Assembly (NCBI GenBank): GCA_009914755.4
Contig: CP068257.2
Span: 2,816,001-2,880,000 of the forward strand
From: the human T2T-CHM13v2.0 reference genome, Homo sapiens
Direction of reading: 5' to 3'
DNA length: 64,000 nucleotides
Shown: in pieces, positions 1 to 49,757 of the stretch
Layout: every line of letters starts with the position of its first letter
Position numbering within the stretch: the stretch's first letter is position 1
Program-made: the position numbers and the translations under genes
Notes under the pieces: generated by a model
What the model was told of the DNA's origin: nothing
The model's input: only the letters and a program-made list of their open reading frames with translations
The model's database searches: none

Positions 1-2265
1 TCATTAAGTGTGACTTCTTTAACTTTGGTATTTTTTTTTCAAAATTATTTTTGCAATTTAGGGTCCCTTGAGATTCCTCATAAACTTAAAAATTGATTTT
101 TTAATATCTACACAAAATAATTGGCATTTTGCTTCTTGGTTACTTCCTAATTTTATTCTTTTGATGCTATTGTAAATTGAGTTGTTTTCATAATTTTCTT
201 CTCAGATTATTCGTATTACTACATAAAATACAGTTTATTTTTCTATGTTGATTTTGTATGCTACTACTCTGCTGAATTTATTAATTTTAATATTTTTTGT
301 GTGGAATCTTTAAGATTTTCTACATAAAAGAATATATTTTCTGTACACACTTTGATGAAGTTTATTTCATTGTCTTTTTTAATTTCTCTGAATGAAACTT
401 CTAATACAGTGTTGAATAAAAGTGGCTGGCAAGAGCAGACATTCTGTCTTCTGAGCTTAGACGAAATAATTTTGGTCTTTTCCTCTAGAACATGTAGTTT
501 GCTGTGGGTTTTTATACGTGAATTTTACAAAGATGGTTTTCTTTTATTCGTAATTTATTGTTTTTATTATAAAATATTTTGAATTTTGTAAAATACATTT
601 TCTGTATTAATGAGATAATGTTTTCTAAAAATTTTGTTAATGTGTCATATGCATTGATTATTTTTCATATGCTAAAACTTTTGTTAAGAAAGGCTAGCTA
701 AGTGAACCAGTGAGACTGGAAAAAGAATAAAGAAATCTATGCTGGTTGTGATCAATTAGTTGTAAACACCATTGCACTGAAACCAGCCATACGCTAAATC
801 TTCCTTACATTCCAGTAATAAATTCCCCTTGGTCATGGGGTGTAATCTTGCTAGTATGCTGCTGAATGTGGTTAGCTAAGATGTTGCTGAGTAGTTTTGC
901 ATCCGTGTTCATAAGGGATATTAGTCTATGGGTTTTTGTAGTCTCTTTGTCTGGCTTTGGTATGAGCTAATGCTGGCATCATGGAATAAGTTTGGAACTG
1001 CTCTCTTCAGGCTTTTGGTAGATTTTGGAAAGGATTTTTGTTCTATAAATGCTTGATCTAAATCACCAGTGAAGCCAACAAAACAAGGGCTTTTCTTCAT
1101 GAGAGGTTTTTAATTACTGATTCCATTTCCTTAGTAGTTTTCTATCTATTCAGATTTTGTATTTCTTTGTAATCAAGTCTTGCATAAGTAGGAATCTGCC
1201 CACTTTATCTAGGTTTTCCAATTTATCATCCTATCATAGTTCACAGTACACTTTTTTAAACATTTTATTTCTTTGAATTAGTAGTAATGTCCCACTTTCA
1301 TTACTCATTTTAGTATGTGAATATGCTGTTAATTTTTCGTGTGTGTAGCTGAAGTTTTGCCAATTGTTAATTTTTTGAAGAACTGAGAGTGAACTTTTGT
1401 TTTTTTGGAATTCTGTTGTTTGTGTAATCTCTATTGCATTTATCTCTGCTAAAATCTTCAATACTTTCTTCTTTCTCTTTGCTTTGCATCTAATTTGGTC
1501 TTATTTTTCTAATTTACTAGGTGATAAAGTTATTATTTATTTGAAATCTTTGCTCTTTTTAAATGTATCTTAGCTGCAAACTTTTCATCTTAACACTGTT
1601 TTTGCTGTTTCCCATAACTTTTGATATGTTTTGTTTTCATTTTTCTTCCTCTGTATGTTCCTACTTCTTCCGTGATTTCTTCCTTTACTTAATTTATACA
1701 ATTTTGTAATTCTTTAAGTTGTAATTGTGTAGTTGTTTAATTTATACAATTTTGTAAACTTTCTAGCATTTCATCTGTTATTGATTTAATTTGAGATCTA
1801 CTATACAGCCCATCCTGGAGAATTCCCCATGTGCATTTGAGAAGAGTGTGTACTCTGTTTTGTTGGATGGAGTATATTGTATATATCTGTTAGATCAATT
1901 TAGTTCATTGAGTTAGTCAAGTCCTCTATTTCCTAATTTATCATTCATCTCATTTTTCTATTCATTACTCAGAGTGGAGTATTAACATCTTCAACTATTA
2001 TTTTAGAACTGTCTATTTGTCCCTTTAATTCTGTCAACTTAGTCTTTCTATATCTAAATGTTTTATTATTAGGTATGTAAGTGTTTAAACTATTTCTATC
2101 TTCTTGCCAAATGCACGTTCTATGATTATATAATGTCTTATTGTCTCTTGTAACTTTTTAAGTCTATTTTGTCTGCTATTAATATAGTCATCCCCAGTCT
2201 CTTTTTCCTACTATTGGTATAAAATAATTATTTTCTTCCCTTTTTTATAACCCTGAATTGCTGTG
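1..2265 (-). mobile_element. LINE-1 (older L1PB/L1M-like), reverse orientation, ORF2 C-terminal region
   Basis: The reverse complement matches L1 ORF2 3'-half motifs (e.g. 'cagtgttgaataaaagtggctggcaagagcagacattctgtcttct', 'gctggcatcatggaataagtttggaa', 'tgcccactttatctaggttttcc'). The sequence is AT-rich with no intact ORF. Confidence 0.8.
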
Positions 2266-10466: not shown

Positions 10467-12721
10467 TGTATTTATTAAAATGTAGTTACCAGAATATTTA
10501 AAATTCACTTGTGCCTCTCATATTATTTCTTAGAGAATTGCCTCCCTTTTGAAATCTCAGGCTGCCTGCTCTAAAACCTGGATGTGCCAGGAAAGTAAAA
10601 CATCTGAAATTTTAAAACAATTGTCATTATATTGATTCCATATATGAATAACACATATATATTATTCATTAATACAAATAATCTTACATACAAATGTAAA
10701 TGCAAATATTTTACAGGCAGGGCCAGTTTCTAGTTCACAGAGGAAGCCCTGCCAGAAAAGGATCCAGAAAAAACCTATAATTCTTGCTTTATTCAACCCA
10801 GTGTCAAATCACATATGTCACTCATGGTCTGAGGCGGCAGGGTAGGGAATTGAACTACATCCAATCATGGGTCTTGGAGTGGAAACTATCTAATCAGGTG
10901 CACAGCTGGAGAAGAATGGGCAGCTTTTTGGAAGTACGGAGGCCTTGGCCTGTCTCTCCACTCAGAGCTCAGGACACTAGAGCCACCTCAACATAATCAC
11001 CTGTTTTTTAGTTATTTTAACACTCCAAAAGGGAACTAGTTTTCTCATGCATTTTCCAAATGTGTGGCAGGCAGAGACTCAAATCTAACTCCCTGTTGCC
11101 CCAGCCTAACTCTGGCTTGCAATCAGATTTTAAATTTCCAGTTCTTTCCTGACACTCACCAACACTAACTAACCTTCCATAATTCACAACATTATCAACT
11201 GTTCTTTATTGTACATTTCAGACACAGTATTTCAATTCTTCTTTTTGTCAAAAAGCAGTGGATGTCATTTAAAAAAATTTTTTCTCATTTGTAAACATTT
11301 TACAGGAGATGAAAGCAGAGAATAATCCCCTGACACCCCACTGTAAAAAAAATAAATAAAAAGCGGAAAACCTTTGTGCCCCTTTGTTTAAACTTCTCTT
11401 GGCACAGACACCCCATCAGAAAGCCTTTGGGTTCAGGTTTCATTTTGGAAACTTCACAGGGCAATACATCCTCAGCCATCCTGTTATTTTCTTGGTTTTG
11501 AATTTCAAAACTGTTTGAGGATTCCCCAAGATGCCAACAGTGGCCATGACTCTTGAAGTGTCTAGTAAATAGCATCCCTTGTGTCATCTCCTCTCAGGGA
11601 ACAGCCCAAAGTATGGGAATGCAGCCTCTCTGTGGAGTGGTTGTTTGAGCTGTGCCTGGAAGGAATCTCTAGGTATACCCTTGCGCTAAAAGCAAACCCA
11701 TTAGGTCATTAAGATTTTCTTACCCCAAAGCTTAGTTTCCATTCCTTAGAGACACATTGCAGGCCAGGCAAATGGATGCTGATATTGAGGAAAAAATGTT
11801 CTCAGATTGGTGAAGGGAGAGAAAATATTTCAAAGGACAAAGAAACCCAACCTAGTGAGGCAGTGCAAAAACCTGCAAAGTAAAATGCACCTCAGGGACA
11901 CAGAGGAGCACAGGGTAGCGGCTCCTGGTAGGATGGTCATGACCCACTTCACTGAACCAGATGTGAGTGGGGAAAATATCCCAAGTAATAGAATGGCTTG
12001 ACTTGACCCTTGGGTCTGATATGTCTGTGTTTCAATCGGCACTGTCACCTTCTAATTTTGTCACCTTGAAAATGTTTTTGTACTTACTTTAACTTCACTT
12101 TTTAATTAACTGTAAATTATGTTTTATCAGTAGAGCTTGAAAGGTATGAAAATATTTATAAAGCACATTAAGTTGGTGAATTTTGAATAAAATTAAGTAG
12201 TAATATATTTCACTTGTTAAAAATTGTTACTTGCCTATTTCTTTAGCAGAATGAGTGTTGTACATTTCCCAGGACTGTTTTTTATTTGTCTGAGAGGTGA
12301 TTTCAAGCAGAATCTCACGGCTTACTGTTGGGAATGTTACCAGGTGTATAGATAGGGATAGTCTCTCTTCCACTACGGTGGTAGGAAATGAATACATACC
12401 TACAAGCACGTGAGGTAGATTAATTGTTAAATTACATAAATTTATCACATCAGTTATTCTTTTTTCAAAACAGAGAACTTCTGATAGTGAATATCTCTGT
12501 TCCATATGCTGTCATCTGGGTGTTTGAGGGTAACGCTAAGTTTTAGGAGCTGGGACTTGGCACCGCCTGGAAGTGTTCACATATGATTGTTTACTAAATG
12601 ATTTGTTATGAACATAATTAAATTACATGTTTATTTTCTGAAAGGAATAGATACTTTGGCTTTTCTTGTTGAGTTATAAAATGTAAGCCCCTTATAACTT
12701 TCTTTTTTAATTTTAATTTTA

Positions 12722-16226: not shown

Positions 16227-17200
16227 TGTTTTTCCATACATAAAAATAAGTTAATAAACAGATAAATAAAATAGACATGGATTTGCTTAGAATAAAGCTA
16301 ATTATAAGATAACAGAAAAGTGAGCACCAAAGATGGGGTTCACCTTAGCAAGTGATTCCAGCCTATTAGGACACTCACAGAATTTTCCCTGCAGCATGAC
16401 CGACATGAAAGTAGAATGTCATCATGTCAGGCTGTACCAGCTTTGGAAGACTAAACACTGTGGGGAAGAACCTCCCTTATGGAATATTATCAACAGGTGA
16501 GAGCCCAGCTCCTGCCCTGATGGGCTACAGAGATGAATTCTTGAGATAACACATTGCAGAAACATGCATAGAGTAGTTTAACCTTTTTTGTGTGTAACCC
16601 TTTCTCCATTTTCCTGCGAAATCCTCCCTAGTAATAGTGTTAGCTTTTAAGTTTTGAGGGTCTGGTAGGACTGAAGCTGCATGCTGCAGGAGATACCTGG
16701 GGCAGGAAACTAATACAAACTGCAGCCACAGGCACAAATACTCATGGTCTAATGTAAAGTGAAAACAATAGAAAGGTCTTTACTGTTATTCACCCAAGTG
16801 AGTGAACAGAGACTTTCCATATAACCAACTTGCCACTGAGACTAATGAAGGCCAGATTCCACTGGATCAAGAATATGAGTTACTCATGGGAAGATCACAG
16901 GACACAGCCCAGAGAGTTTTCATATTGGAGTCTGGGTACTGGATCTGTCCCGGTCTTCTTGGGTTTCTGTCTGTAGAGACCGCTATGTGGCTGCTCTTAC
17001 CACAGCCCGGTGCTGGCTGTGGTTGCTGGTTTAGTGCACCTGCTCTTTTTCCAAAAAGAGGGAGGAGTTGGCCACATCAAGCAGCTCCTAATCAATCTGA
17101 ATGCAGCTCTGTAAAAAGTGCCTAGAAACCATGCAAAGAAAAGTCAGTGGTCTGCCTTGTTTTCACCGTATGTGACACCTCCACTAGAAATTCTGCTTTT

Positions 17201-17247
17201 CTCTGCACTGCAGCCTGGGTGACAGAGCGAGGCTTCCTCAAAAAACA
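17201..17247 (+). mobile_element. 5'-truncated Alu 3'-end fragment
   Basis: 'ctctgcactgcagcctgggtgacagagcgaggcttcctcaaaaaa' is the extreme 3' end of Alu. A 12-bp TSD 'agaaattctgct' lies at 17186-17197 and 17445-17456. Confidence 0.85.
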
Positions 17248-17313
17248 AAAAGAAAAAGAAAAAGAGAGAAAGAAAGACATAAGGAAGTAAGGAAGAAGAA
17301 AGAAAGAAAGAAA

Positions 17314-17373
<60 letters not shown>

Positions 17374-17444
17374 AGAAAGAAAGAAAGAAAGAAAGAAGAA
17401 AGAAAAAGAAAGAAAGAAAATAAAAGAGAAAAGAAAAGAAAAGA
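17248..17444. repeat. (GAAA)n/(AAAG)n tetranucleotide microsatellite (about 200 bp) grown from the Alu A-tail
   Basis: Long, nearly pure run of 'gaaagaaagaaa...' immediately 3' of the Alu fragment and inside its TSDs. Confidence 0.95.
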
Positions 17445-18585
17445 AATTCTGCTCTTCAGATTAGGCACATAAGGAGAATCTGTATAAATCTCCAGCAAGG
17501 AAGGAAACCAGAGGACAAGTTAAAGTCTTGGAATTCACATCTGAGTACACAGACTCGGTCTCCAACCCTCTTCTTTTTATTCTGCCAGCTATGGCCTAGG
17601 TATGAACATGACAAGTACACAAGAGTTCCAACACCTGACAATCTGCTTCAATAAAAGAAGAGTGCCCTCCCTCTTGCTCCCCATACAACTCATGGTACTA
17701 AGAAATGGTGTGGGTCTTCCCAGATGAGTTGACAAGAGAGGCCTGGCTCTGGGGCCTGTCCTGGGCTGCCCTGTGTTATTTGTAGGTGCACCCGGCCAAT
17801 AGCCAGGGGCATCAATGATGAGGCCTGAGTTGACATCCGTGTTTTCAGATAAGGCTTTTGCACTGAGCCTTTGTAAGGTCAAAACTCAGAAATTTCAGGG
17901 CACAATGAAAGAACATCTCACTCTCTTGAGCATCTCTCACTAACAGCGGTGGATACAGAGCTGTCTCAAGAATGTGGGTTCCTGGTTTCTTAACTGATGT
18001 TGGGTTGTCACCAAGAAAGTGTGTTAAACTCTTCAAGGTTCCATCTACTGGGTCCCTTCTTTCTGTAAGACCTACCCAAAGGTCGCACTATGCTACTAAC
18101 TGCTCAGTCTCCTCTTCTATGTCAACTCTTCATTTGTACACAAATATGCAAACAAAACTTCCCCTTAATTCCCTGGAAAGAACTAAATGCAGCCTGGGTT
18201 CCAGGATATAAGAGACAGCTGGAACATAAACTTGTTTTTCTTACCATCTCTGGGACCTAATAAAAGTCACTGTGTATTTGAGGCTTCCCCAGCCTCCTAG
18301 CATGCACACTGGGGATGATGCTAACATCTACTTCCTAGGGATTGTATTAGATGTATATAAGATAAAACATAAAAATCATGATGTGGTGTTACCTGTAGAT
18401 AATGCACACACTTAGAGATGGAAGCATTAGGAGAATACGTAGGAGGTAGCATGGGCCACAACTCAAACAGTCCTGGGTCTGGCAGGGTGATCTTGGGAAT
18501 GTCACTTCTCCACTGGGCTTCATTTTCATTCTGCTCCAGTATGAAGTTGAAATTAAATGTAGATACTGTCCTCTGACATTCATAT

Positions 18586-42389: not shown

Positions 42390-44270
42390 CTGAGGATCTT
42401 GAAGCTCTCGCTGGGGGAATCGGGGCTGGGGGCACACTGGGGAGCCGCTGCCAAGGCCATCCACCCTCCCTACAAGCCACCTCCCTTCCCGGCCAGTATG
42501 GAAAGGAGAAGGGTTATGTGAACAGCTGTGGAGGTCAGAATCTCGGGAACTGAATCAGGCCCCAGCCCATGCCCCCCAGCCCAGTCCAGCCAGCGTGCTT
42601 GCCAGTCTTCCCACACAGCCAGCCCAGCCCTCAGGATTGTTAGATGGAACAAGGCTCCATCATCACCCAGGCATGGATGGAAGATGCCCTGGTCCTTACC
42701 AAGCAAGGCCTGGTTTCCAAAGTCCTCTCCGAAGAGGCCTCATGTTTGTCACATCTTAAAAGTCCCCTTTCTGCTGTTCTTGCACCCAGCATGTTGGACA
42801 GTCAAGTTCCCCCGCTGAGCAATCCACACATAAGGAGGGAGTCAACACTATTGCTATGTCAGATCAGCTCCAGCGTCTCCAGTATCAGTTTTATCAGATC
42901 CCAGGAACCTGCCTGCTCCCAGAGGTGACAGAGAAAAATCAAGGAAGGATCTGTATGGTCACTGACCTAGATGAAAACCTTGTGCATAGCTCCTTTAAGC
43001 CAATCAGCAATGCTGACTGCCTAGTGCCTGTAGAGTTTGAGGGGACCATGCACCAGATCCATGTGCTCATGAGGCCTTATATGGATGAGTTCCTGACATG
43101 AATGGAGGAAATGTTTAAATGTGTTTTCGTCATTGCTCTCTTCTTCCCAGCCTGAACAAGTAGGCAGATCCTGTGATGGGTGAGCTGGACGGGTATGGGA
43201 TGGTCTGGGGCTGCCTGTCCCATGAGTCATGTTTGTTTCACCAGGGCTGCTATGTCAAGGACATCAGCCGTCTGGGTAGGGACCTGAGGAAAACTCATCC
43301 TGGACAACTCGCCTGCTTCTTACCTCTTCCACACAGAGAATGCAGTGCCTGTGCAGTCCTGGTTTGATAACATTCCAGACAGCAGCTGCTGCACCTGATA
43401 TCATTCTTTGAGGAGATGAGTGGAGGAGCAGAGGGCCTCTGCACTAGCCTTGGGCAGCAGTGGGCCCTTAACCTTCCCTGCTTCCCAGCAATGGCCATCA
43501 CAGTAGGGGATTTTCCCACACTGTGCCTCTATGATCAGCCTGAAAGAGCGAAGGCTGGAACACCTACCCACATGGGCCTGGAAAGAGTGAGAAGTGATTG
43601 AAAAGAGCTTTAGGACAGCTTAGATTCCCAGTGGGTGAATGCCAGACCAAGGATACCCAGAGCTACCTGCCATCAAGTTGTTGGGTTCCCAAGATGTGGG
43701 TGTGAGAGAAAGAAAGAGAGCATGTGTGTTTTGTGATGAACTGTGGCCCCAAGTATATAGTGTTTCAGTAGGGGAGAAGCTGAAGGACAAAGACTCTTCC
43801 CAAGCTAGCTTGTCTCCTCTCCTGTCACCCTATGAGCCCCTGAGATCTATAGGGATGAAGAGTATTGAAGGCTCCATTGCAAACCTGGTCTTTCTACAGT
43901 GCTACAAGGCCTATGCCAAAGAGAAAGGAAAGGTACGTCTTTGGGTGTTCCAGGCACACATCTTTCTGAAATATTTCTCCAGCCAGTTGTTGCAGACAAA
44001 AGACGACATTTCTGGGAAGATGGGGACTTATGTTCAGACGAGTACCCAAACTATCAGGTCTTCTGGTCCAAAGGCTATTTTTACTTACCTCTAGCCAAGT
44101 GCCTGGGATGGATCCTTCCTGCATCTCCCCAAGGCTCACCACTTAGCCATAGCCTCAAACCCGTGGGGAAGGAAGGTCTACCCGCCCTGCAAGAGGACAA
44201 ATAACTGATTTTTGTTCATTTGACTCTGTTTTAAAATTCTCTTTAAAAAAAAAAAAAAAAAAAAAAAGAA
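42390..44270 (+). pseudogene. CTDSP2: CTDSP2 (SCP2, CTD small phosphatase 2) processed pseudogene / retrocopy
   Basis: Intronless. It begins at 42644 with 'MEQGSIITQAWMEDALVLTKQGLVSK', versus CTDSP2 'MEHGSIITQARREDALVLTKQGLVSK'. A second frame reads '[19 protein letters not shown]', versus 'SSPKKPRGRNIFKALFCCF'. A third frame reads '[73 protein letters not shown]', the FCP1-homology catalytic core with DxDxT altered to DLDEN. Further on come '[24 protein letters not shown]', '[28 protein letters not shown]' and 'SLGQQWAL'. There are at least 2 frameshifts and several stops. The 3'UTR ends in an A24 tail at about 44245-44268. Confidence 0.85.
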
Positions 44271-44605
44271 AAAGAAAGCGTATCTGAAACTTAAAAAAAA
44301 AAACAAGGAAAAAAGATGAAAAAAATGACATACATAGGTGAAAAACACATAGATATATGTATAAGCAACAAACACGGCTAATTCACATATAAATTAAATA
44401 TCACATTGTCATAAAGTGTACCGAGTTAAAAAATTATCATTCAACTCATGATATCAAGCTTTAAAAGCAAAAATACAATTAACTGATCTGAGAAAACATA
44501 CCCCCCCAAGAAAAGAAACACAACAACACAGAATTGAACATAAGAAGAGAGATTAAATGCATAAAATCCTGAATACAACATAAATATACAATGAAAAATA
44601 AACCC

Positions 44606-44906
44606 TTTTTTTTTTTTTTTTTTTTTGAGACAGAGTCTCACCCTGTCGCCCAGGCTGTAGTGCAGTGGTGCCATCTCGGCTCACTGCAAGCTCCGCCCAC
44701 TGGGTTCACTCCATTCTCCTGCCTCAGCCTCTCGAGTAGCTGGGAATACAGGCACCCACCACTATGCCCGGCTAATTTTTTCTATATTTAGTAGAGACGG
44801 GGTTTCACCGTGGTAGCCAGGATGGTCTTGATCTCCTGACCTCGTGATCCACCCACCTTGGCCTCCCAAAGTGCTGGGATTACAGGCGTGAGCCACCATG
44901 CCGGGC
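44606..44906 (-). mobile_element. Alu (AluS/Y-like, reverse), T19 tail, TSD 'gaaaaataa(a)ccc'
   Basis: 'tttttttttttttttttttgagacagagtctcaccctgtcgcccaggctgtagtgcagtggtgccatctcggctcactgcaagctccgcc...gtgctgggattacaggcgtgagccaccatgccgggc'. Both flanks read 'gaaaaataaaccc' / 'gaaaaataaccc'. Confidence 0.95.
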
Positions 44907-46158
44907 TGAAAAATAACCCTTTAGATATCTACAGCTTTAAACTGTGTGCAGTCATGAAAAGCAGACATTGGAAGTCATTGGCATTTAATAAATTGCAGAA
45001 AAATTATACAGTAAATACATTACAATCATTAATAATAGGCTCTAATGAGAAGAATTTAATAAATAATCATTAAAAAGACAGCAGAATTTTATCTGTTCTC
45101 AATATGTTGCTGCTCTTCTTATCAAATACTATAATAAAACTATATGACTATAATATAGCTTTCAGGAGCTAAAAAAAGCCTTATATTTTCAAATAAAAGA
45201 ACAATATAAATTTTGCAAAATACAATGAGCATTACTGAAGTATAAAGTAAATATTTGGAATTAAAATATATGGTCATTTAGATACAGACTAAAAAAGAAT
45301 AGAAATCTTAATGATTCCTTTCTGCCTACAGTGAGCTTAAAATTACAACCAAAAATTTTAACAAATATGTAGCACCTACAAGAAATTTTATTAACAGCTT
45401 ACATAATGTGTAAATTTGAGCAATTTATTTTAGAACTTTTGAATCTGAAAATCACCTGCTTGACATTCATTTGAGAAAGTGAAACATAAAGGAGAGTAAC
45501 ATAAGCAAGACGACAGAATGTGAGGTTCTGCATCCACATCCCCCACGACATAATGCAGCTGCCACAGCAAACATAAGTGCATTCATGAAAGCCTTGGAAT
45601 CCAGTTCAGAGTTTGTGGCACCCAGCTGGAGGCAAAGACCAAGGAAGACATTTTCAGAGGGTGAGCACTTGACCAAGTGGCAAGCTTGCCAATCATGGTC
45701 CCGGCTTCAAAACAGAATACTGCCACATCTTACTGTAGACTTGGCTATAACTCATTTGACCTTGGTCCTGCCACTGCAACAATCTGTGAAAAACACAAGA
45801 GAATTCATACTCACCTGAGACTTAGGTGACAGGCCTGCAGAACTTGGTTCTCTCTATAGTCACTGAGTCAGGCAAAACACACCTTCTTTCCTTCTCCAGC
45901 CATGGTCTGGAAGAAATCTTCACATTGATATGATGAAATGCTAACTAACAATATGAAAAATACTAAAGTATAAATGTCACTAAAATGGTAAATACATACT
46001 GAATTTCAGAATACTCTAAATTGTTATCATCTTAAACTAGACTATTAAAATACAAGATGTTTTACCTAAGTCTCATGATAACCACTAGGAAAAAAAAACT
46101 GCAGTAAAGAAAAAGAGAAAGTAATTAAAGCATACACAAACAACAAAAATTACACATT

Positions 46159-46380
46159 GGATATGGTGTCTCCTGCTTATAATTCCAACACTTTGGGAGG
46201 CCAAGGTGGAAGAATGAAATCTCCTTGGGTGTTGTGGTACGTGTCTGTAGTCCAAGCTACTTGGGTGGCTAAGGTGGGAGGATTATTTGAGCCCAGGAGG
46301 TTGAAGCTACAGTGAGCTGTGATATGCCACTGCACTTCAGTCTGAGCAAGAAAGCATAACTTTGTCTCAACAAAAATGAA
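46159..46380 (+). mobile_element. Alu (old, internally deleted, forward)
   Basis: 'ggatatggtgtctcctgcttataattccaacactttgggaggccaaggtggaagaatg...gagcccaggaggttgaagctacagtgagctgtgatatgccactgcacttcagtctgagcaag'. Confidence 0.8.
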
Positions 46381-46439
46381 CAATACCACAGGAAAGACAG
46401 AACCAGAAAAAAAAGAAGCAAACTTAAAATGCACAGAAA

Positions 46440-47300
46440 ACTACAAATTTACAATAGTAACTCCTTACCTATCACTACCTTACAAATAAAAAGATTAAAG
46501 TATCTACTAAACAGATACTGCTGTACACTGAATGTCATCTCCAAAATTTAGGATAAAATTTAATAGCCAACATGTTAGAATTAAGAGGTGGAACCTTTAA
46601 AAATTAATTAAGCTCTAAGAACTCTGCCCTCATGAATGGATTAATGTTCTTATTATGGGAATGGGCTAATTTTAACAAGAATGGATCTGTTATATATTAA
46701 AAAAAAAAAGCTCTCTCTCCCTCACATCTTTGTCTATGTTATTATCCAGCAACTAGACCTTCAACATATACCAGTATCATGTTGTTTTGGCTTCCCAGCC
46801 TCCAGAATCATAAGTCAAATAAAATTCTATTCTTTATTAATTACCAGTGTGTGATATTCAGTTATAGCAGCCAAAAGAGACTAAAGCAGACAGAGTGGAT
46901 AAATTAATCTTTCAAACCTAGTAATATGCTGCTTACAAGAGACTCAATTATGAATTAAGAGCATAGGCTAAAAGTGAAAGGATAGAAAATGATATTCCAT
47001 GCAAACAATAACCAAAGGAGTGCAACGGTAATGCTTAAATTAGACAAAATAGACTTTCTAGCAATGTCTCTCACAAGCATGAAATGAGTTTACCATACAA
47101 TAATAATAGAGGTTAATTTCTCAAGAGAATATAGCTTTATATATTTATGCACCCAAAAGGGAGGCTTCTAAATATAAAAAGCAAATATTGCCAGAACTGT
47201 AGGGAGAAGTAGAAAGAAACCAAATAATAGAAAACTTTAATGAAATGTATAATAAAGGACATATAGTTAACAGCATTGTAAATTGGCAAGGGAAAGCTGG
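46440..47300 (+). mobile_element. old L1 (L1M-like) ORF2 5' (endonuclease) region
   Basis: '...gcataggctaaaagtgaaaggatagaaaatgatattccatgcaaacaataaccaaaggagtgcaacggtaatgcttaaattagacaaaatagactttctagcaa...ttatgcacccaa' parallels L1 ORF2 '...cataggctcaaaataaaaggatggaggaagatctaccaagcaaatggaaaacaaaaaaaggcaggggttgcaatcctagtctctgataaaacagactttaaacca...tttatgcacccaa'. Confidence 0.6.
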
Positions 47301-47859
47301 TCTCATGTGTTGCATTTGAGAATGCAGCAAAGAAAGTGGGAACTGATAATTTTACTGCAAGCCTGAGTTAGGATGAAAAACAGGGTGGTCGATTAGAGGT
47401 TCCACTTGCCATACATTAAAAAAACACAGGAGAAAACCAGTCCTCCTCTGGAGTGTTAAAATAATTAAAGATCAGAAAATTAGTCTAAAGTGGCTCTAGT
47501 GCCCTGTGTTCATAGGTAAAAAGCAAAAAACAAACAAAAAAAAATCTAAAACCTAACTCAAATATATTTCCTATAAAACACTATCTTAGCCTGAAGCAAA
47601 ATGCAGGTTTAACCCATGACAAACATGCAATTAACCTCTGAATATGTAACCAGGACATTTCCATCTGGATAGTTCAAATAAGGCTACCATATAACTGGAA
47701 CCAATTCTTGAATTTGGGTTGCTTTCTCATGCATCTTATAAAAGCCTTTCCTTTATGCCCCTCTGGTGGACCAGAAATCATGGCTGGGTGCTTTCCATTT
47801 CACCAATCACTCTTTGTTCAGATAAACTGATGAACCTTTTAACATAGACTCCCGTTAAT

Positions 47860-48480
47860 TTTTAACAAGAGAGACTGGGGACCCCACGGGCCGCAGCTCC
47901 TCCCACGCAAACATCCAGTCGCGGTTTTTCCCTGATGACCCACCAGGCCTCCCTGAACAATCTGGGAAATACTCATGGCTGTGGGCGCAGAGCAGGGCGC
48001 TGCCCAGGGACAGGACCGGATGGGCCGGACGGGACGTGGGGGCCCTCGCTGCTGGCCCAGCGGCCATCTTGCAGCCACAGGGGACTGAGGGCCAAGCTGC
48101 GGGAGACTCGGAGCTAACCGTGGGGAGGCCGGTCCTGCCGGTTTCACAGTCTGTTCTCCCCTCTCGGGATGGCGAACCCCGTATACTCACCATTTCCCAG
48201 CTTCCAGGATGTCCTGGCACCTTAACTATGCGTCCCCAAGGACCTACAGATCACAGGGCAACAGGGGCTGTGAGAGAGTAGCCCGGGGCTCCCAAGGTGC
48301 AGGAGGCGAAAGAGGAGACGGATCCCAAGCTCTTGTGCCAGCACCAGCGAGAGACACAGATCCCGCCAAATGCTGGAAGCCACGCCCTCCTTTCCTCTCC
48401 TCTGCCACCGCGCGCCTGATTGGGCGGTTCCCACATCAGTGTCAATGACTGGATAAAACTCCAGGACGCACCCACCCGAG
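47860..48480. promoter_or_regulatory. CpG island (about 600 bp) with promoter-like motifs. Possibly a minus-strand promoter and first exon
   Basis: By my count about 34 CpG dinucleotides lie in about 600 bp of G+C-rich sequence, versus near zero in the flanking L1/Alu DNA. On the minus strand, the reverse complement of 48416-48423 is CCAAT 'ccaatcag', next to a GC box at 48422-48427. Further downstream the minus strand reads '...ctgggaaatg|gtgagtatacgggg', a consensus 5' splice donor with GTGAGT at 48190-48185. On the plus strand there is a TATA-like 'tataaaag' at 47737-47744. Confidence 0.5.
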
Positions 48481-49137
48481 CCTGACTCCTGCCCTTACCC
48501 CCACTCCCCCTCAGCCTTAGTGCATTTTTGTTAGTTTGTTTTTCTTTAAGTTCTGGAATACATGTGCAGAAAGTGCAGGTTTGTTACATAGTTTTACATG
48601 TGCCATGGTGGTTTGCTGCACCTATCAACCTGCCATCTAGGGTTTAAGCCCCACATGCATTAGGTATTTGTCCTAATTTTCTCCCTCCCCTTGACCTCAA
48701 CCCCTTAACAGGCCCCAGTGTGTGATCTTTGGTTCCCGGTGTCCATGTGTTCTCATTTTTCAACTCCCACATATGAGTGAGAGCATATGGTGTTTGCTTT
48801 CCTGTTCCCGTGTTAGTTTGCTGAGGTTAATGGTTTCCAGCTTCATTCACGTCCCTGCAAAGGACATGAACTCATTCTTTTTATGGCTGCTTATTATTTC
48901 ATGGTGTAGATGTGCCACATTTTCTTTTTCCAATCTATCAATGATGAGCATTAGGGTTGGTTCCAAGTCTTTGCTATTGCAAACAGTGCTGCAATACACA
49001 TATGAGTGCATGTGTCTTTATGCTAGAATGATTTATATTCCTTTGGGTATATATCCAGTAATGAGATTGCTGGATCAAATGGTATTTCTGGTTCTAGATC
49101 CTTGAGGAATCACCACACTGTCTTCCATAATGGTTGA

Positions 49138-49757
<620 letters not shown>

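What the first reader, a model, noticed from the sequence alone, without database searches (positions are those of the whole stretch)
47860..48480. Isolated CpG island with CCAAT/GC boxes and a candidate minus-strand splice donor. Possible unannotated promoter and first exon
This is the only CpG-rich stretch in 64 kb of otherwise CpG-depleted L1/Alu sequence. I count about 34 CpGs in about 600 bp. CpGs are lost quickly when methylated in the germline, so their retention suggests a hypomethylated, probably functional, promoter-type island. On the minus strand there is a CCAAT box (reverse complement of 48416-48423) beside a GC box (48422-48427). About 230 nt downstream is 'GGGAAATG|GTGAGTAT', a near-consensus 5' splice donor (GT at 48190-48189). 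That layout fits a TSS near 48.35 kb and a roughly 150-nt first exon spliced to something upstream in window coordinates. A plus-strand TATA-like 'tataaaag' (47737-47744) is an alternative, weaker reading. The island directly abuts the poly(A) end of a minus-strand L1PA-like element (48523), so the L1 landed at its edge without destroying it. The open reading frames that cross the island (47855-48220 on the minus strand, 48036-48281 on the plus strand) are Pro/Gly/Ala/Arg-rich low-complexity translations. I do not think they are coding.
Basis: partly seen in the sequence, partly recalled or inferred. Interest (0 to 1): 0.55.

Follow-up and report, generated by a model that had tools for sequence, protein, structure and literature searches.

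The report
Duplicated CpG-island promoter-like element
This is a real but weak CpG island laid out like a gene promoter with a first exon, but it is one copy of a much-duplicated primate DNA segment rather than a unique site, and whether it is active could not be tested here.

Summary
Window 47860-48480 has 34 CpGs, 62% GC and CpG o/e 0.57.

The promoter reading is partly supported. The ~670-bp unit (47847-48515, sense = minus strand) is collinear with a titi-monkey locus (T1) that is a stronger CpG island (o/e 0.72). It also has a more diverged paralogue there (T2, 60-65% identity).

W1, T1 and T2 keep the same ordered features:
- two CCAAT boxes, a GC box and an E2F-like site;
- the G|GTGAG donor;
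- a YY1 motif.

An ETS core is intact only in T1 and some copies.

Fourteen related copies recovered from metagenome contigs all keep the donor. Across them, island CpGs vary no more than other bases, while flank CpGs are about 14-fold enriched for variation. That is the expected signature of germline hypomethylation.

The island is not unique. Those copies differ by 1-10% over up to 10 kb, two came from one sample, and their variants are mosaic, so it lies in a multi-copy segmental duplication. This copy has lost the distal CCAAT and the ETS core.

No coding potential and no conserved downstream exon were found. Transcription, TSS, donor use, genomic locus and annotation status remain untested. 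It is an ordinary kind of element.

The parts
47847..48515 (-). Homology unit W1, which is the CpG island (promoter motifs, candidate exon 1 and the 5' part of intron 1).
   Evidence: Bounds come from alignment to titi T1 and T2 and from the nhmmer profile. It has 35 CpG in 636 bp with o/e 0.57.
48448..48452 (-). Distal CCAAT box, mutated to CCAGT in this copy.
   Evidence: It reads CCAAT in T1, T2, W2 and 6 of 14 related copies.
48419..48427 (-). Proximal CCAAT box (ATTGG on the plus strand) overlapping a GC box (GGGCGG).
   Evidence: The 23-mer GGGAACCGCCCAATCAGGCGCGC is identical in the window and titi T1. The CCAAT is kept in T2.
48380..48387 (-). GGGCGTGG, an Sp/KLF-type GC box.
   Evidence: Identical in T1 and AGGGCGG in T2. 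Invariant in the related copies.
48373..48379 (-). Decayed ETS core. It reads CTTCCAG here, against CTTCCGG (CCGGAAG on the other strand) elsewhere.
   Evidence: CTTCCGG is present in 7 related copies, and TTCCGG in T1. The window copy carries a CpG-to-CpA change.
48361..48370 (-). E2F-like site, TTTGGCGGGA.
   Evidence: Present in 12 of 14 related copies. T2 has TTTCGCGGG and T1 has TGTGGCGGG. The motif assignment rests on my own knowledge.
48191..48345 (-). Candidate non-coding first exon. The 5' end is inferred, not observed. It contains the conserved block CAGCCCCTGTTGCCCTGTGATCTGTAGGTC (48270-48241).
   Evidence: The block is conserved in W1, T1 and T2. The TSS position is inferred from the motif layout only.
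48185..48193 (-). Candidate 5' splice site, ATG|GTGAGT.
   Evidence: Invariant in all 14 related copies. T1 reads AGG|GTGAGT and T2 reads ATG|GTGAGA. The motif alone is at chance frequency.
48155..48172 (-). Conserved block CCATCCCGAGAGGGGAGA, just downstream of the donor.
   Evidence: Nearly identical in W1, T1 and T2.
48060..48070 (-). YY1-type motif AAGATGGCCGC, in the CpG-densest lobe.
   Evidence: Conserved in T1 (AAGATGGCAGC) and T2 (AAGATGGCGGC), and in all copies that cover it. It fits the AANATGGN(C/G) motif quoted in PMC3491394.
48524..50441 (-). 5'-truncated L1 with an Alu inside (49471-49757). Its poly(A) end abuts the unit.
   Evidence: Read from the sequence. The Alu was found. 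The L1 is absent at the titi empty site and present in every related copy that reaches it.
42644..47546 (+). CTDSP2 processed pseudogene. The CDS-like part is 42644-43466 and the A-rich tail is about 47517-47546. A minus-strand transcript from the island would run antisense through it.
   Evidence: Pfam NIF match, E 2e-9. tblastn shows the whole CDS contiguous with frameshifts and stops. The CTDSP2 query sequence was recalled from memory. The extent of the 3' UTR and tail is inferred from the sequence.
10596..10978 (+). W2, a decayed fragment of the paralogous unit. It keeps the CCAAT part only and has lost its CpGs. It includes flank orthologous to the titi T2 flank.
   Evidence: blastn 65.6% identity, E 1e-34. 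nhmmer hit at 10836-10974, E 9e-12. CpG o/e 0.085.

Best explanation
The island is one copy of a TATA-less, intermediate-CpG RNA polymerase II promoter module, together with a short non-coding first exon and the start of its intron. It reads on the minus strand.

Proposed mechanism (inferred):
- NF-Y binds the CCAAT boxes, assisted by Sp/KLF, ETS and E2F-type sites at 48.45-48.36 kb.
- Initiation occurs near 48.35-48.31 kb.
- The transcript is spliced at 48191|48190.
- A YY1 site about 120 nt downstream of the donor (roughly 250-290 nt from the inferred TSS) modulates transcription or marks a second start cluster.
- The product is most likely a non-coding RNA that runs antisense through the adjacent CTDSP2 retrocopy.

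History (inferred from the comparisons):
- The duplication that produced T1 and T2 predates the window-titi divergence.
- An L1 landed about 40 bp upstream of the unit in the window's lineage.
- The whole segment of at least 10 kb was then multiplied by segmental duplication. Many near-identical promoters therefore exist.
- The window's copy is slightly degenerate, having lost the distal CCAAT and the ETS core.

Shown here: the CpG enrichment, the conservation of motif order and of the donor, CpGs in the island not being hypermutable, the multi-copy status, and the lack of coding potential.

Inferred only: factor binding, TSS, strand, splicing, and activity of this copy.
For: - CpG enrichment is real and unique within the window.
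- The titi homologue T1 lies in a collinear chain and is a stronger island: 45 CpG in 608 bp, o/e 0.72.
- The paralogue T2 (60-65% identity, CpG o/e 0.51) keeps both CCAAT boxes, the GC box, the E2F-like site, the exon block, the ATG|GTGAG donor and a perfect YY1 motif, all in the same order.
- All 14 related copies hold 31-37 CpGs and an invariant donor. All copies that cover the YY1 site keep it unchanged.
- Island CpG positions are variable at 10/70 against 9/18 in the flanks (p 0.0025, or 0.004 without the selected 23-mer). The CpG versus non-CpG odds ratio is 1.6 inside the island and 14 outside it.
- The YY1 motif and the donor are both on the minus strand. The motif cluster lies at the upstream edge of the island for that strand, as is typical of CGI promoters (my own knowledge).
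- Orphan CGIs commonly turn out to be promoters (PMC2944787).
Against: - No expression, TSS or methylation data could be consulted.
- The island is no better conserved than its flank against titi: 78% versus 81%.
- The motif-cluster and exon-1 part is actually more variable among copies than the flanks.
- GGTGAGT is at chance frequency. Its reverse complement also reads as a good plus-strand acceptor.
- GC skew gives no strand signal.
- No conserved downstream exon is shared with titi.
- This copy has lost two motifs.
Confidence: 0.5

Rival explanations
1. Dead copy. The family has, or once had, an active promoter somewhere, but this window copy is an inactive relic. Its CpGs look protected only because gene conversion from active copies keeps homogenising it.
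For: - The window copy has CCAGT in place of the distal CCAAT, and CTTCCAG in place of the ETS core.
- Its o/e of 0.57 is below the 0.72 of titi T1.
- 57% of informative site pairs fail the four-gamete test, which indicates sequence exchange among copies.
- The sister fragment W2 in the same window has fully decayed, with o/e 0.085.
Against: - The copy still carries 35 CpGs, within the 31-37 range of all copies.
- It keeps the proximal CCAAT/GC box, the E2F-like site, the donor and the YY1 motif.
- Copies with different motif losses have equal CpG content. That argues against rapid decay of any one of them.
Confidence: 0.2
2. Different start site or a bidirectional promoter. Transcription would start in the CpG-densest lobe next to the YY1 motif (about 48.10-48.06 kb, minus strand), and/or a divergent plus-strand transcript would start near the CCAAT cluster. 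The GTGAGT at 48190 would then not be used as a donor.
For: - CpG density is bipartite in W1, T1 and T2, and the larger lobe surrounds the YY1 motif.
- The segment 47847-48190 is the least variable part among copies, at 15/344.
- One described class of YY1 sites lies at or just downstream of the TSS (PMC3491394).
- NF-Y, ETS, E2F and YY1 motif sets are typical of bidirectional promoters (my own knowledge).
Against: - No good conserved donor lies downstream of the YY1 site; the candidates are weak (read).
- On the plus strand a transcript would immediately enter the antisense L1.
- The donor at 48190 is conserved in T1, T2 and all copies.
Confidence: 0.15
3. Transposable-element origin. The ~670-bp unit would be an old LTR or another interspersed repeat whose promoter motifs and CpGs survive by chance or by co-option. 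The reader named this as a refuting outcome.
For: - It is a discrete unit with the same ends in W1, T1 and T2 and no flank homology between T1 and T2.
- The ends read roughly TG...CA-like in some copies.
- The 60-65% identity between paralogues is typical of old repeat families.
Against: - A profile search of 103 kb finds only W1, W2, T1 and T2.
- There are no tandem subunits, no terminal inverted repeats and no obvious target-site duplications.
- The unit is not followed by L1 ORF1. The downstream flank is unique and shared with titi.
- Old repeats do not normally keep an o/e of 0.5-0.7 in three copies.
- Dfam and RepeatMasker could not be run.
Confidence: 0.1
4. Protein-coding first exon. 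The ATG that ends the exon (48193-48191) would be a start codon, as in genes whose first exon ends at the initiator ATG, with the coding sequence continuing in a distant exon.
For: ATG|GT is present in the window, in all 14 related copies and in T2, with A at position -3.
Against: - T1 reads AGG.
- No conserved coding exon lies downstream in the window or in titi.
- No alpha-tubulin, beta-tubulin, FRG1, FRG2, FAM86, KRAB-ZNF, TPTE, WASH, ANKRD20A or BAGE coding matches were found in the window. The query sequences were recalled from memory.
- The island ORFs have no family match and no real homologue.
Confidence: 0.03

Closest known systems
Orphan CpG islands that act as unannotated promoters (Illingworth et al. 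2010, PMC2944787)
   Same: It is a CpG-rich, apparently germline-unmethylated stretch with no coding gene found within the window. It has promoter-type motifs and a homologous counterpart that is also CpG-rich.
   Different: It is weak (o/e 0.57, fails Takai-Jones) and multi-copy through segmental duplication. Initiation and chromatin state were not tested here.
TATA-less NF-Y / Sp1 / ETS / E2F / YY1 CpG-island promoters of housekeeping, cell-cycle or bidirectional type
   Same: It has two CCAAT boxes about 30 bp apart, a GC box, an ETS core and an E2F-like site in a row. A YY1 motif of the AANATGGN(C/G) type lies downstream, as described in PMC3491394.
   Different: The motifs were assigned by eye and by conservation only. 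This copy has lost the distal CCAAT and the ETS core. No partner gene or cell-cycle element was identified.
Promoters carried and multiplied by primate segmental duplications (multi-copy lncRNA or pseudogene families in duplication-rich regions)
   Same: A segment of at least 10 kb containing the island, an L1, Alus and a retrocopy exists in many 90-99% identical, mosaic versions.
   Different: The family and its chromosomal locations could not be named. The copies come from contaminating host DNA in metagenome assemblies, not from an assembled genome.
LTR-derived CpG-rich promoters such as LTR12 (NF-Y dependent), SVA, and the L1 5' UTR
   Same: It is a discrete promoter-bearing unit with CCAAT boxes. 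A YY1 motif is also a feature of the L1 5' UTR.
   Different: It has no tandem subunits, no ORF1 downstream and a homologue in a New World monkey. Only four family members were found in 103 kb. Dfam was not available.

Membership tests
CpG island (Gardiner-Garden and Frommer) | At least 200 bp with GC >= 50% and CpG observed/expected >= 0.6. | tested here: met
A 448-bp interval (47792-48239) has GC 0.587 and o/e 0.60. Several 200-bp windows have o/e 0.60-0.66.
CpG island (Takai and Jones) | At least 500 bp with GC >= 55% and o/e >= 0.65. | tested here: not met
   No interval in 47500-48800 qualifies.
CpG island (functional sense) | CpGs are protected from methylation-driven decay in the germline. 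| tested here: met
   This is an indirect evolutionary proxy. Island CpG positions are variable at 10/70, against 9/18 in the flanks (p 0.0025). The CpG versus non-CpG odds ratio is 1.6 inside and 14 outside. Selection or gene conversion could mimic this pattern.
CpG island (functional sense) | Directly measured lack of methylation (bisulfite or long-read data). | not testable with these tools
   No methylome data are available.
RNA polymerase II promoter with first exon | A mapped transcription start (CAGE, PRO-cap) and promoter chromatin marks. | not testable with these tools
   No such data are available. The TSS at about 48.35-48.31 kb is inferred from the motif layout only.
RNA polymerase II promoter with first exon | The splice donor is used in transcripts. 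| not testable with these tools
   Only conservation of G|GTGAG in T1, T2 and 14 copies is available. The motif is at chance frequency.
Segmental duplication | At least 1 kb at 90% identity or more, present more than once in one genome, and not simply a transposon. | tested here: met
   Fourteen distinct contigs are 90-99% identical to the window. The longest, L003, is 97.5% identical over 10.2 kb, spanning unique DNA, an L1, Alus and the retrocopy. Two versions that differ at about 6% of aligned bases (89.8% identity) came from one sample. 57% of site pairs are tree-incompatible. Caveat: the host genome or genomes are not identified.
Interspersed repeat / LTR (Dfam family) | Many dispersed copies, defined termini and target-site duplications. 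| tested here: inconclusive
   Only 4 members were found in 103 kb. There are no tandem or inverted terminal repeats and no clear TSD. Dfam and RepeatMasker are not available.
L1 5' UTR | The unit is followed in the same orientation by L1 ORF1. | tested here: not met
   The downstream flank (47647-47879) is unique sequence shared with titi. The neighbouring L1 presents its 3' end to the island.
SVA VNTR / LTR12 | Internal tandem subunits, and a catarrhine- or hominoid-restricted insertion. | tested here: not met
   No tandem repeats were found. The unit has a collinear homologue in a New World monkey.
Protein-coding exon | An ORF conserved in frame, with homologues or domains. | tested here: not met
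   No Pfam match. The only hit among 5.8e9 proteins is an ab-initio titi model. A frameshift is present in 5 copies. The ATG is AGG in titi.

The most novel reading that the evidence does not exclude
A promoter module that duplicated before the window-titi divergence has been carried along and multiplied by segmental duplication in the window's lineage. It now drives a family of unannotated transcripts, expressed in germline or embryo, that run antisense through a CTDSP2 retrocopy. These transcripts could act on the parent CTDSP2 mRNA, or the copies could simply mark a set of active promoters hidden in duplicated DNA that is poorly represented in reference assemblies.
Probability: 0.12. Interest if true: 0.5.

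Novelty: new member of a known kind. Interest (0 to 1): 0.28.

Why it matters
If the module is active, it adds a set of near-identical promoters in duplicated primate DNA. Such regions are under-annotated because short reads multi-map, so a whole small RNA family could be missing from gene catalogues. The island and its neighbours also make a compact natural experiment on how a CpG island survives an L1 insertion about 40 bp from its upstream edge, repeated duplication and motif loss. If it is inactive, it is simply an ordinary relic of a duplicated promoter.

Tried and rejected
- Locating the window: it could not be placed on a chromosome. A mir-1324-like hairpin suggested the human 3p12.3 FRG2C region. 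However, tblastn with FRG2, FRG1, FAM86, KRAB/zinc-finger, alpha-tubulin, beta-tubulin, TPTE, WASH, ANKRD20A and BAGE proteins found nothing. These query sequences were recalled from memory. The hairpin also differs from the family consensus.
- Literature: searches on MIR1324, FRG2C and CTDSP2 pseudogenes gave nothing useful.
- Protein searches: ORFs from the GC-rich 52-58 kb block have no protein relatives and no Pfam domains.
- Structured RNA: no Rfam family matches the island even at E<=5.
- Strand from GC skew: no consistent signal in W1, T1 or T2.
- Downstream exons: no unique nucleotide or translated similarity exists between titi downstream DNA and the window.
- Transcript evidence: none of the island ORFs is in the 5.8e9-protein collection apart from the titi model, so no transcript-derived contigs could be retrieved.
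- Bacterial-type promoter and terminator scan: irrelevant and empty.
- Discarded contigs: L004 is a host/bacterial chimera. The rearrangements in L016 look like Alu-mediated misassembly.

Full report
**1. Observation**

The stretch 47860-48480 is 621 bp with 34 CpGs, 62.3% GC and CpG observed/expected (o/e) 0.565. The whole window has 455 CpGs and a background o/e of 0.17.

At the window-wide density only 4.4 CpGs would be expected (P 4e-19). At the local base composition and the background o/e, 10.3 would be expected (P 5e-9).

Every 200-bp bin with 8 or more CpGs lies in 47801-48500. The only 200-bp windows in the 64 kb that pass GC>=0.5 and o/e>=0.6 lie in 47841-48560.

The island is weak. 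The longest Gardiner-Garden/Frommer interval is 448 bp (47792-48239), and nothing meets the Takai-Jones criteria.

- ATTGG at 48419-48423.
- GGGCGG at 48422-48427.
- Donor GT at 48190-48189.
- tataaaag at 47737-47744.
- The L1 tail at about 48524.
- The two ORFs.

The heptamer GGTGAGT occurs 7 times in the window against 6.6 expected. The donor match means nothing on its own.

**2. A homologous locus in a New World monkey**

I searched the concatenated island ORFs against 5.8e9 proteins. The single hit was an ab-initio 'hypothetical protein' of the titi monkey Plecturocebus cupreus. Its genomic locus is L001.

L001 is collinear with the window's minus strand:
- Window 51769-50490 matches L001 6928-9678.
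- An L1 with an internal Alu follows that is present only in the window.
- The island, 48457-47857, matches L001 9778-10385 at 74% identity.
- An Alu follows that is present only in titi.
- Window 47879-47647 matches L001 10652-10881 at 80% identity.

Titi shows the empty L1 target site.

The titi counterpart (T1) is a stronger island, with 45 CpGs in 608 bp and o/e 0.72. Eighteen CpGs are shared.

Overall identity is no higher in the island (78%) than in the flank (81%). Specific blocks are conserved:
- The 23-mer GGGAACCGCCCAATCAGGCGCGC is identical in both.
- GGAGGGCGTGG is conserved.
- G|GTGAGT is conserved.
- GCAAGATGGC is conserved.

The exon-final ATG reads AGG in titi.

The 74-82% identity is low for a catarrhine-platyrrhine orthologue pair. 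Strict orthology is therefore not certain.

**3. An older paralogue**

L001 carries a second copy, T2 (L001 4530-5195). It lies on the opposite strand, head-to-head with T1 and 4.6 kb away. It is 65% identical to T1 and 60% identical to the window unit across the full ~650 bp, and there is no homology outside the unit. T2 is also CpG-rich, with 30 CpGs and o/e 0.51.

The three-way alignment shows the same ordered features in W1, T1 and T2:
- A distal CCAAT (TTATCCAATCA).
- A proximal CCAAT (CCAATCAGGC).
- A GC box.
- An ETS core (TTCCGG), intact in T1 only.
- An E2F-like site (TTTGGCGGG or TTTCGCGGG).
- A 30-nt block (CAGCCYCTGTKGCYCTGTGAYCTGYAGGT).
- The donor G|GTGAG.
- A CATCCCGAGAG block.
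- A YY1-type AAGATGGCNGC motif.

The YY1-type motif fits the AANATGGN(C/G) consensus quoted in PMC3491394.

The window also holds a decayed fragment of the T2-type copy, W2 (10596-10978, plus strand; o/e 0.085). It retains only the CCAAT part plus flank orthologous to the T2 flank.

A profile built from W1, T1 and T2 finds no further copies in 103 kb. The unit has no tandem or terminal inverted repeats. This looks like an old local duplication of a promoter module rather than a high-copy transposon. Dfam could not be consulted.

**4. The island is multi-copy**

An exact search for the conserved 23-mer in metagenome contigs returned 15 contigs. One is a host/bacterial chimera.

The other 14 align to the window over 0.5-10.2 kb. 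Together they cover unique DNA, the island, the L1, Alus and the retrocopy tail. Identity to the window is 90-99%. None is identical to the window or to any other contig. Pairwise identity over 1.4 kb is 92-99%.

Two points argue against orthologues from different species or alleles:
- Two versions that differ at about 6% of aligned bases (89.8% identity) come from the same sample.
- 57% of informative site pairs fail the four-gamete test within 1.4 kb.

The pattern fits paralogues that exchange sequence, or reads from several paralogues merged by the assembler. Either way, the island lies in a multi-copy segmental duplication. The L1 insertion predates that amplification, because every copy that reaches it has it.

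**5. Test of the hypomethylation inference**

I used majority-consensus CpG positions covered by at least 8 sequences.

| Region | CpG positions variable | CpG vs non-CpG odds ratio |
|---|---|---|
| Island | 10 of 70 | 1.6 (not significant) |
| Flanks | 9 of 18 | 14 (p 8e-7) |

Island versus flank CpGs differ with Fisher p 0.0025. The p-value is 0.004 after removing the six positions fixed by the search 23-mer.

All copies keep 31-37 CpGs.

CpGs in the island have therefore mutated at about the background rate. That is what germline hypomethylation predicts. Purifying selection or gene conversion are alternative contributors.

Unexpectedly, the motif-cluster and exon-1 part (48191-48482) is 2.9 times more variable among copies than the flanks (p 7e-8). 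The part downstream of the donor (47847-48190) is the least variable. I have no explanation for this beyond conversion tracts from diverged copies.

**6. State of this copy, and coding potential**

The window copy reads CCAGT where T1, T2, W2 and 6 copies read CCAAT. It reads CTTCCAG where T1 has TTCCGG and 7 copies read CTTCCGG, the ETS core. It is a slightly degenerate member of the family.

The ORFs crossing the island show no sign of coding:
- They have no Pfam match.
- They have no genuine homologue.
- A 1-bp deletion in 5 copies breaks the long minus-strand ORF.
- No conserved downstream exon is shared with titi at the nucleotide or protein level.

**7. Surroundings**

A CTDSP2 processed pseudogene lies just downstream of the island on the opposite (plus) strand. 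Its CDS-like part is 42644-43466, with frameshifts and stops, and its A-rich tail is at about 47517-47546. A minus-strand transcript from the island would be antisense to it.

The window also has a mir-1324-like hairpin (56227-56317) and a Y RNA-like element (688-788).

I could not place the window on a chromosome (see Tried and rejected).

**8. Interpretation**

The best reading (confidence about 0.5) is a TATA-less, intermediate-CpG Pol II promoter with a short non-coding first exon on the minus strand.

The proposed steps are:
- NF-Y binds the CCAAT boxes, together with Sp/KLF, ETS and E2F-type factors.
- Initiation occurs near 48.35-48.31 kb.
- Splicing occurs at 48191|48190.
- A YY1 site lies downstream of the donor.

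The supporting evidence is comparative rather than direct. Strand, TSS and splicing are inferred.

The rivals are:
- This copy is a dead relic (0.2).
- The start site lies at the YY1 lobe, or the promoter is bidirectional (0.15).
- The unit is an old LTR-like repeat (0.1).
- The exon is a coding first exon ending in ATG (0.03).

**9. Comparison with what is known, and verdict**

The element works like the orphan CpG islands that turn out to be promoters (PMC2944787). It also resembles NF-Y/E2F/ETS/YY1 CpG-island promoters.

It passes the lenient CGI definition and fails the strict one. It meets the definition of a segmental duplication. The L1 5' UTR, SVA and LTR12 alternatives fail the features I could test.

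It is a further example of a well-known kind of element and may already be annotated, which I could not check. I score interest at 0.28.

Noticed in passing
window 42644-43466 (+), tail about 47517-47546: A CTDSP2 processed pseudogene. The whole coding sequence is contiguous, with frameshifts and stop codons, and it gives a Pfam NIF phosphatase match. It ends about 300 bp from the island on the opposite strand.
   Followed up: partly
window 56227-56317 (-): A mir-1324-like hairpin (Rfam, 87 bits, full length). It differs from the family consensus at several positions, including the mature-arm region. It is probably a paralogue rather than the canonical gene.
   Followed up: partly
window 688-788 (-): A Y RNA-like element (Rfam, 42.5 bits, just above threshold). 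It is probably a Y RNA pseudogene.
   Followed up: no
window 10596-10978 (+); L001 4530-5195 (-): A decayed fragment (W2) of a second, older copy of the island unit. The titi counterpart (T2) is intact, CpG-rich and head-to-head with T1, 4.6 kb away. In the window, W1 and W2 are tail-to-tail and 37 kb apart.
   Followed up: partly
window 47780-47811 and 47735-47742: A 32-bp block (minus strand: AGTGATTGGTGAAATGGAAAGCACCCAGCCAT) is 100% identical between the window and titi. It contains an inverted CCAAT. This could be a second, TATA-type start just beyond the island.
   Followed up: no
window 48191-48482 versus 47847-48190: Among the duplicated copies, the motif-cluster and exon-1 part of the island is 2.9 times more variable than the flanks (p 7e-8). 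The part downstream of the donor is the least variable. The variants come in shared blocks.
   Followed up: partly
window 54243-54812; L001 5993-6620: A segment matches the titi locus in both orientations, indicating a local inverted repeat or inversion. Collinearity with titi breaks down beyond it.
   Followed up: no
L004; L016: Metagenome contig L004 joins 84 nt of the island to bacterial coding DNA and is a chimera. L016 shows inversions at Alu boundaries that look like assembly misjoins.
   Followed up: partly
window 17125-17520 and 49329-49559: Long low-complexity tracts: a (GAAA/TTTC)n-like run, and a CTT-rich run inside the L1/Alu.
   Followed up: no
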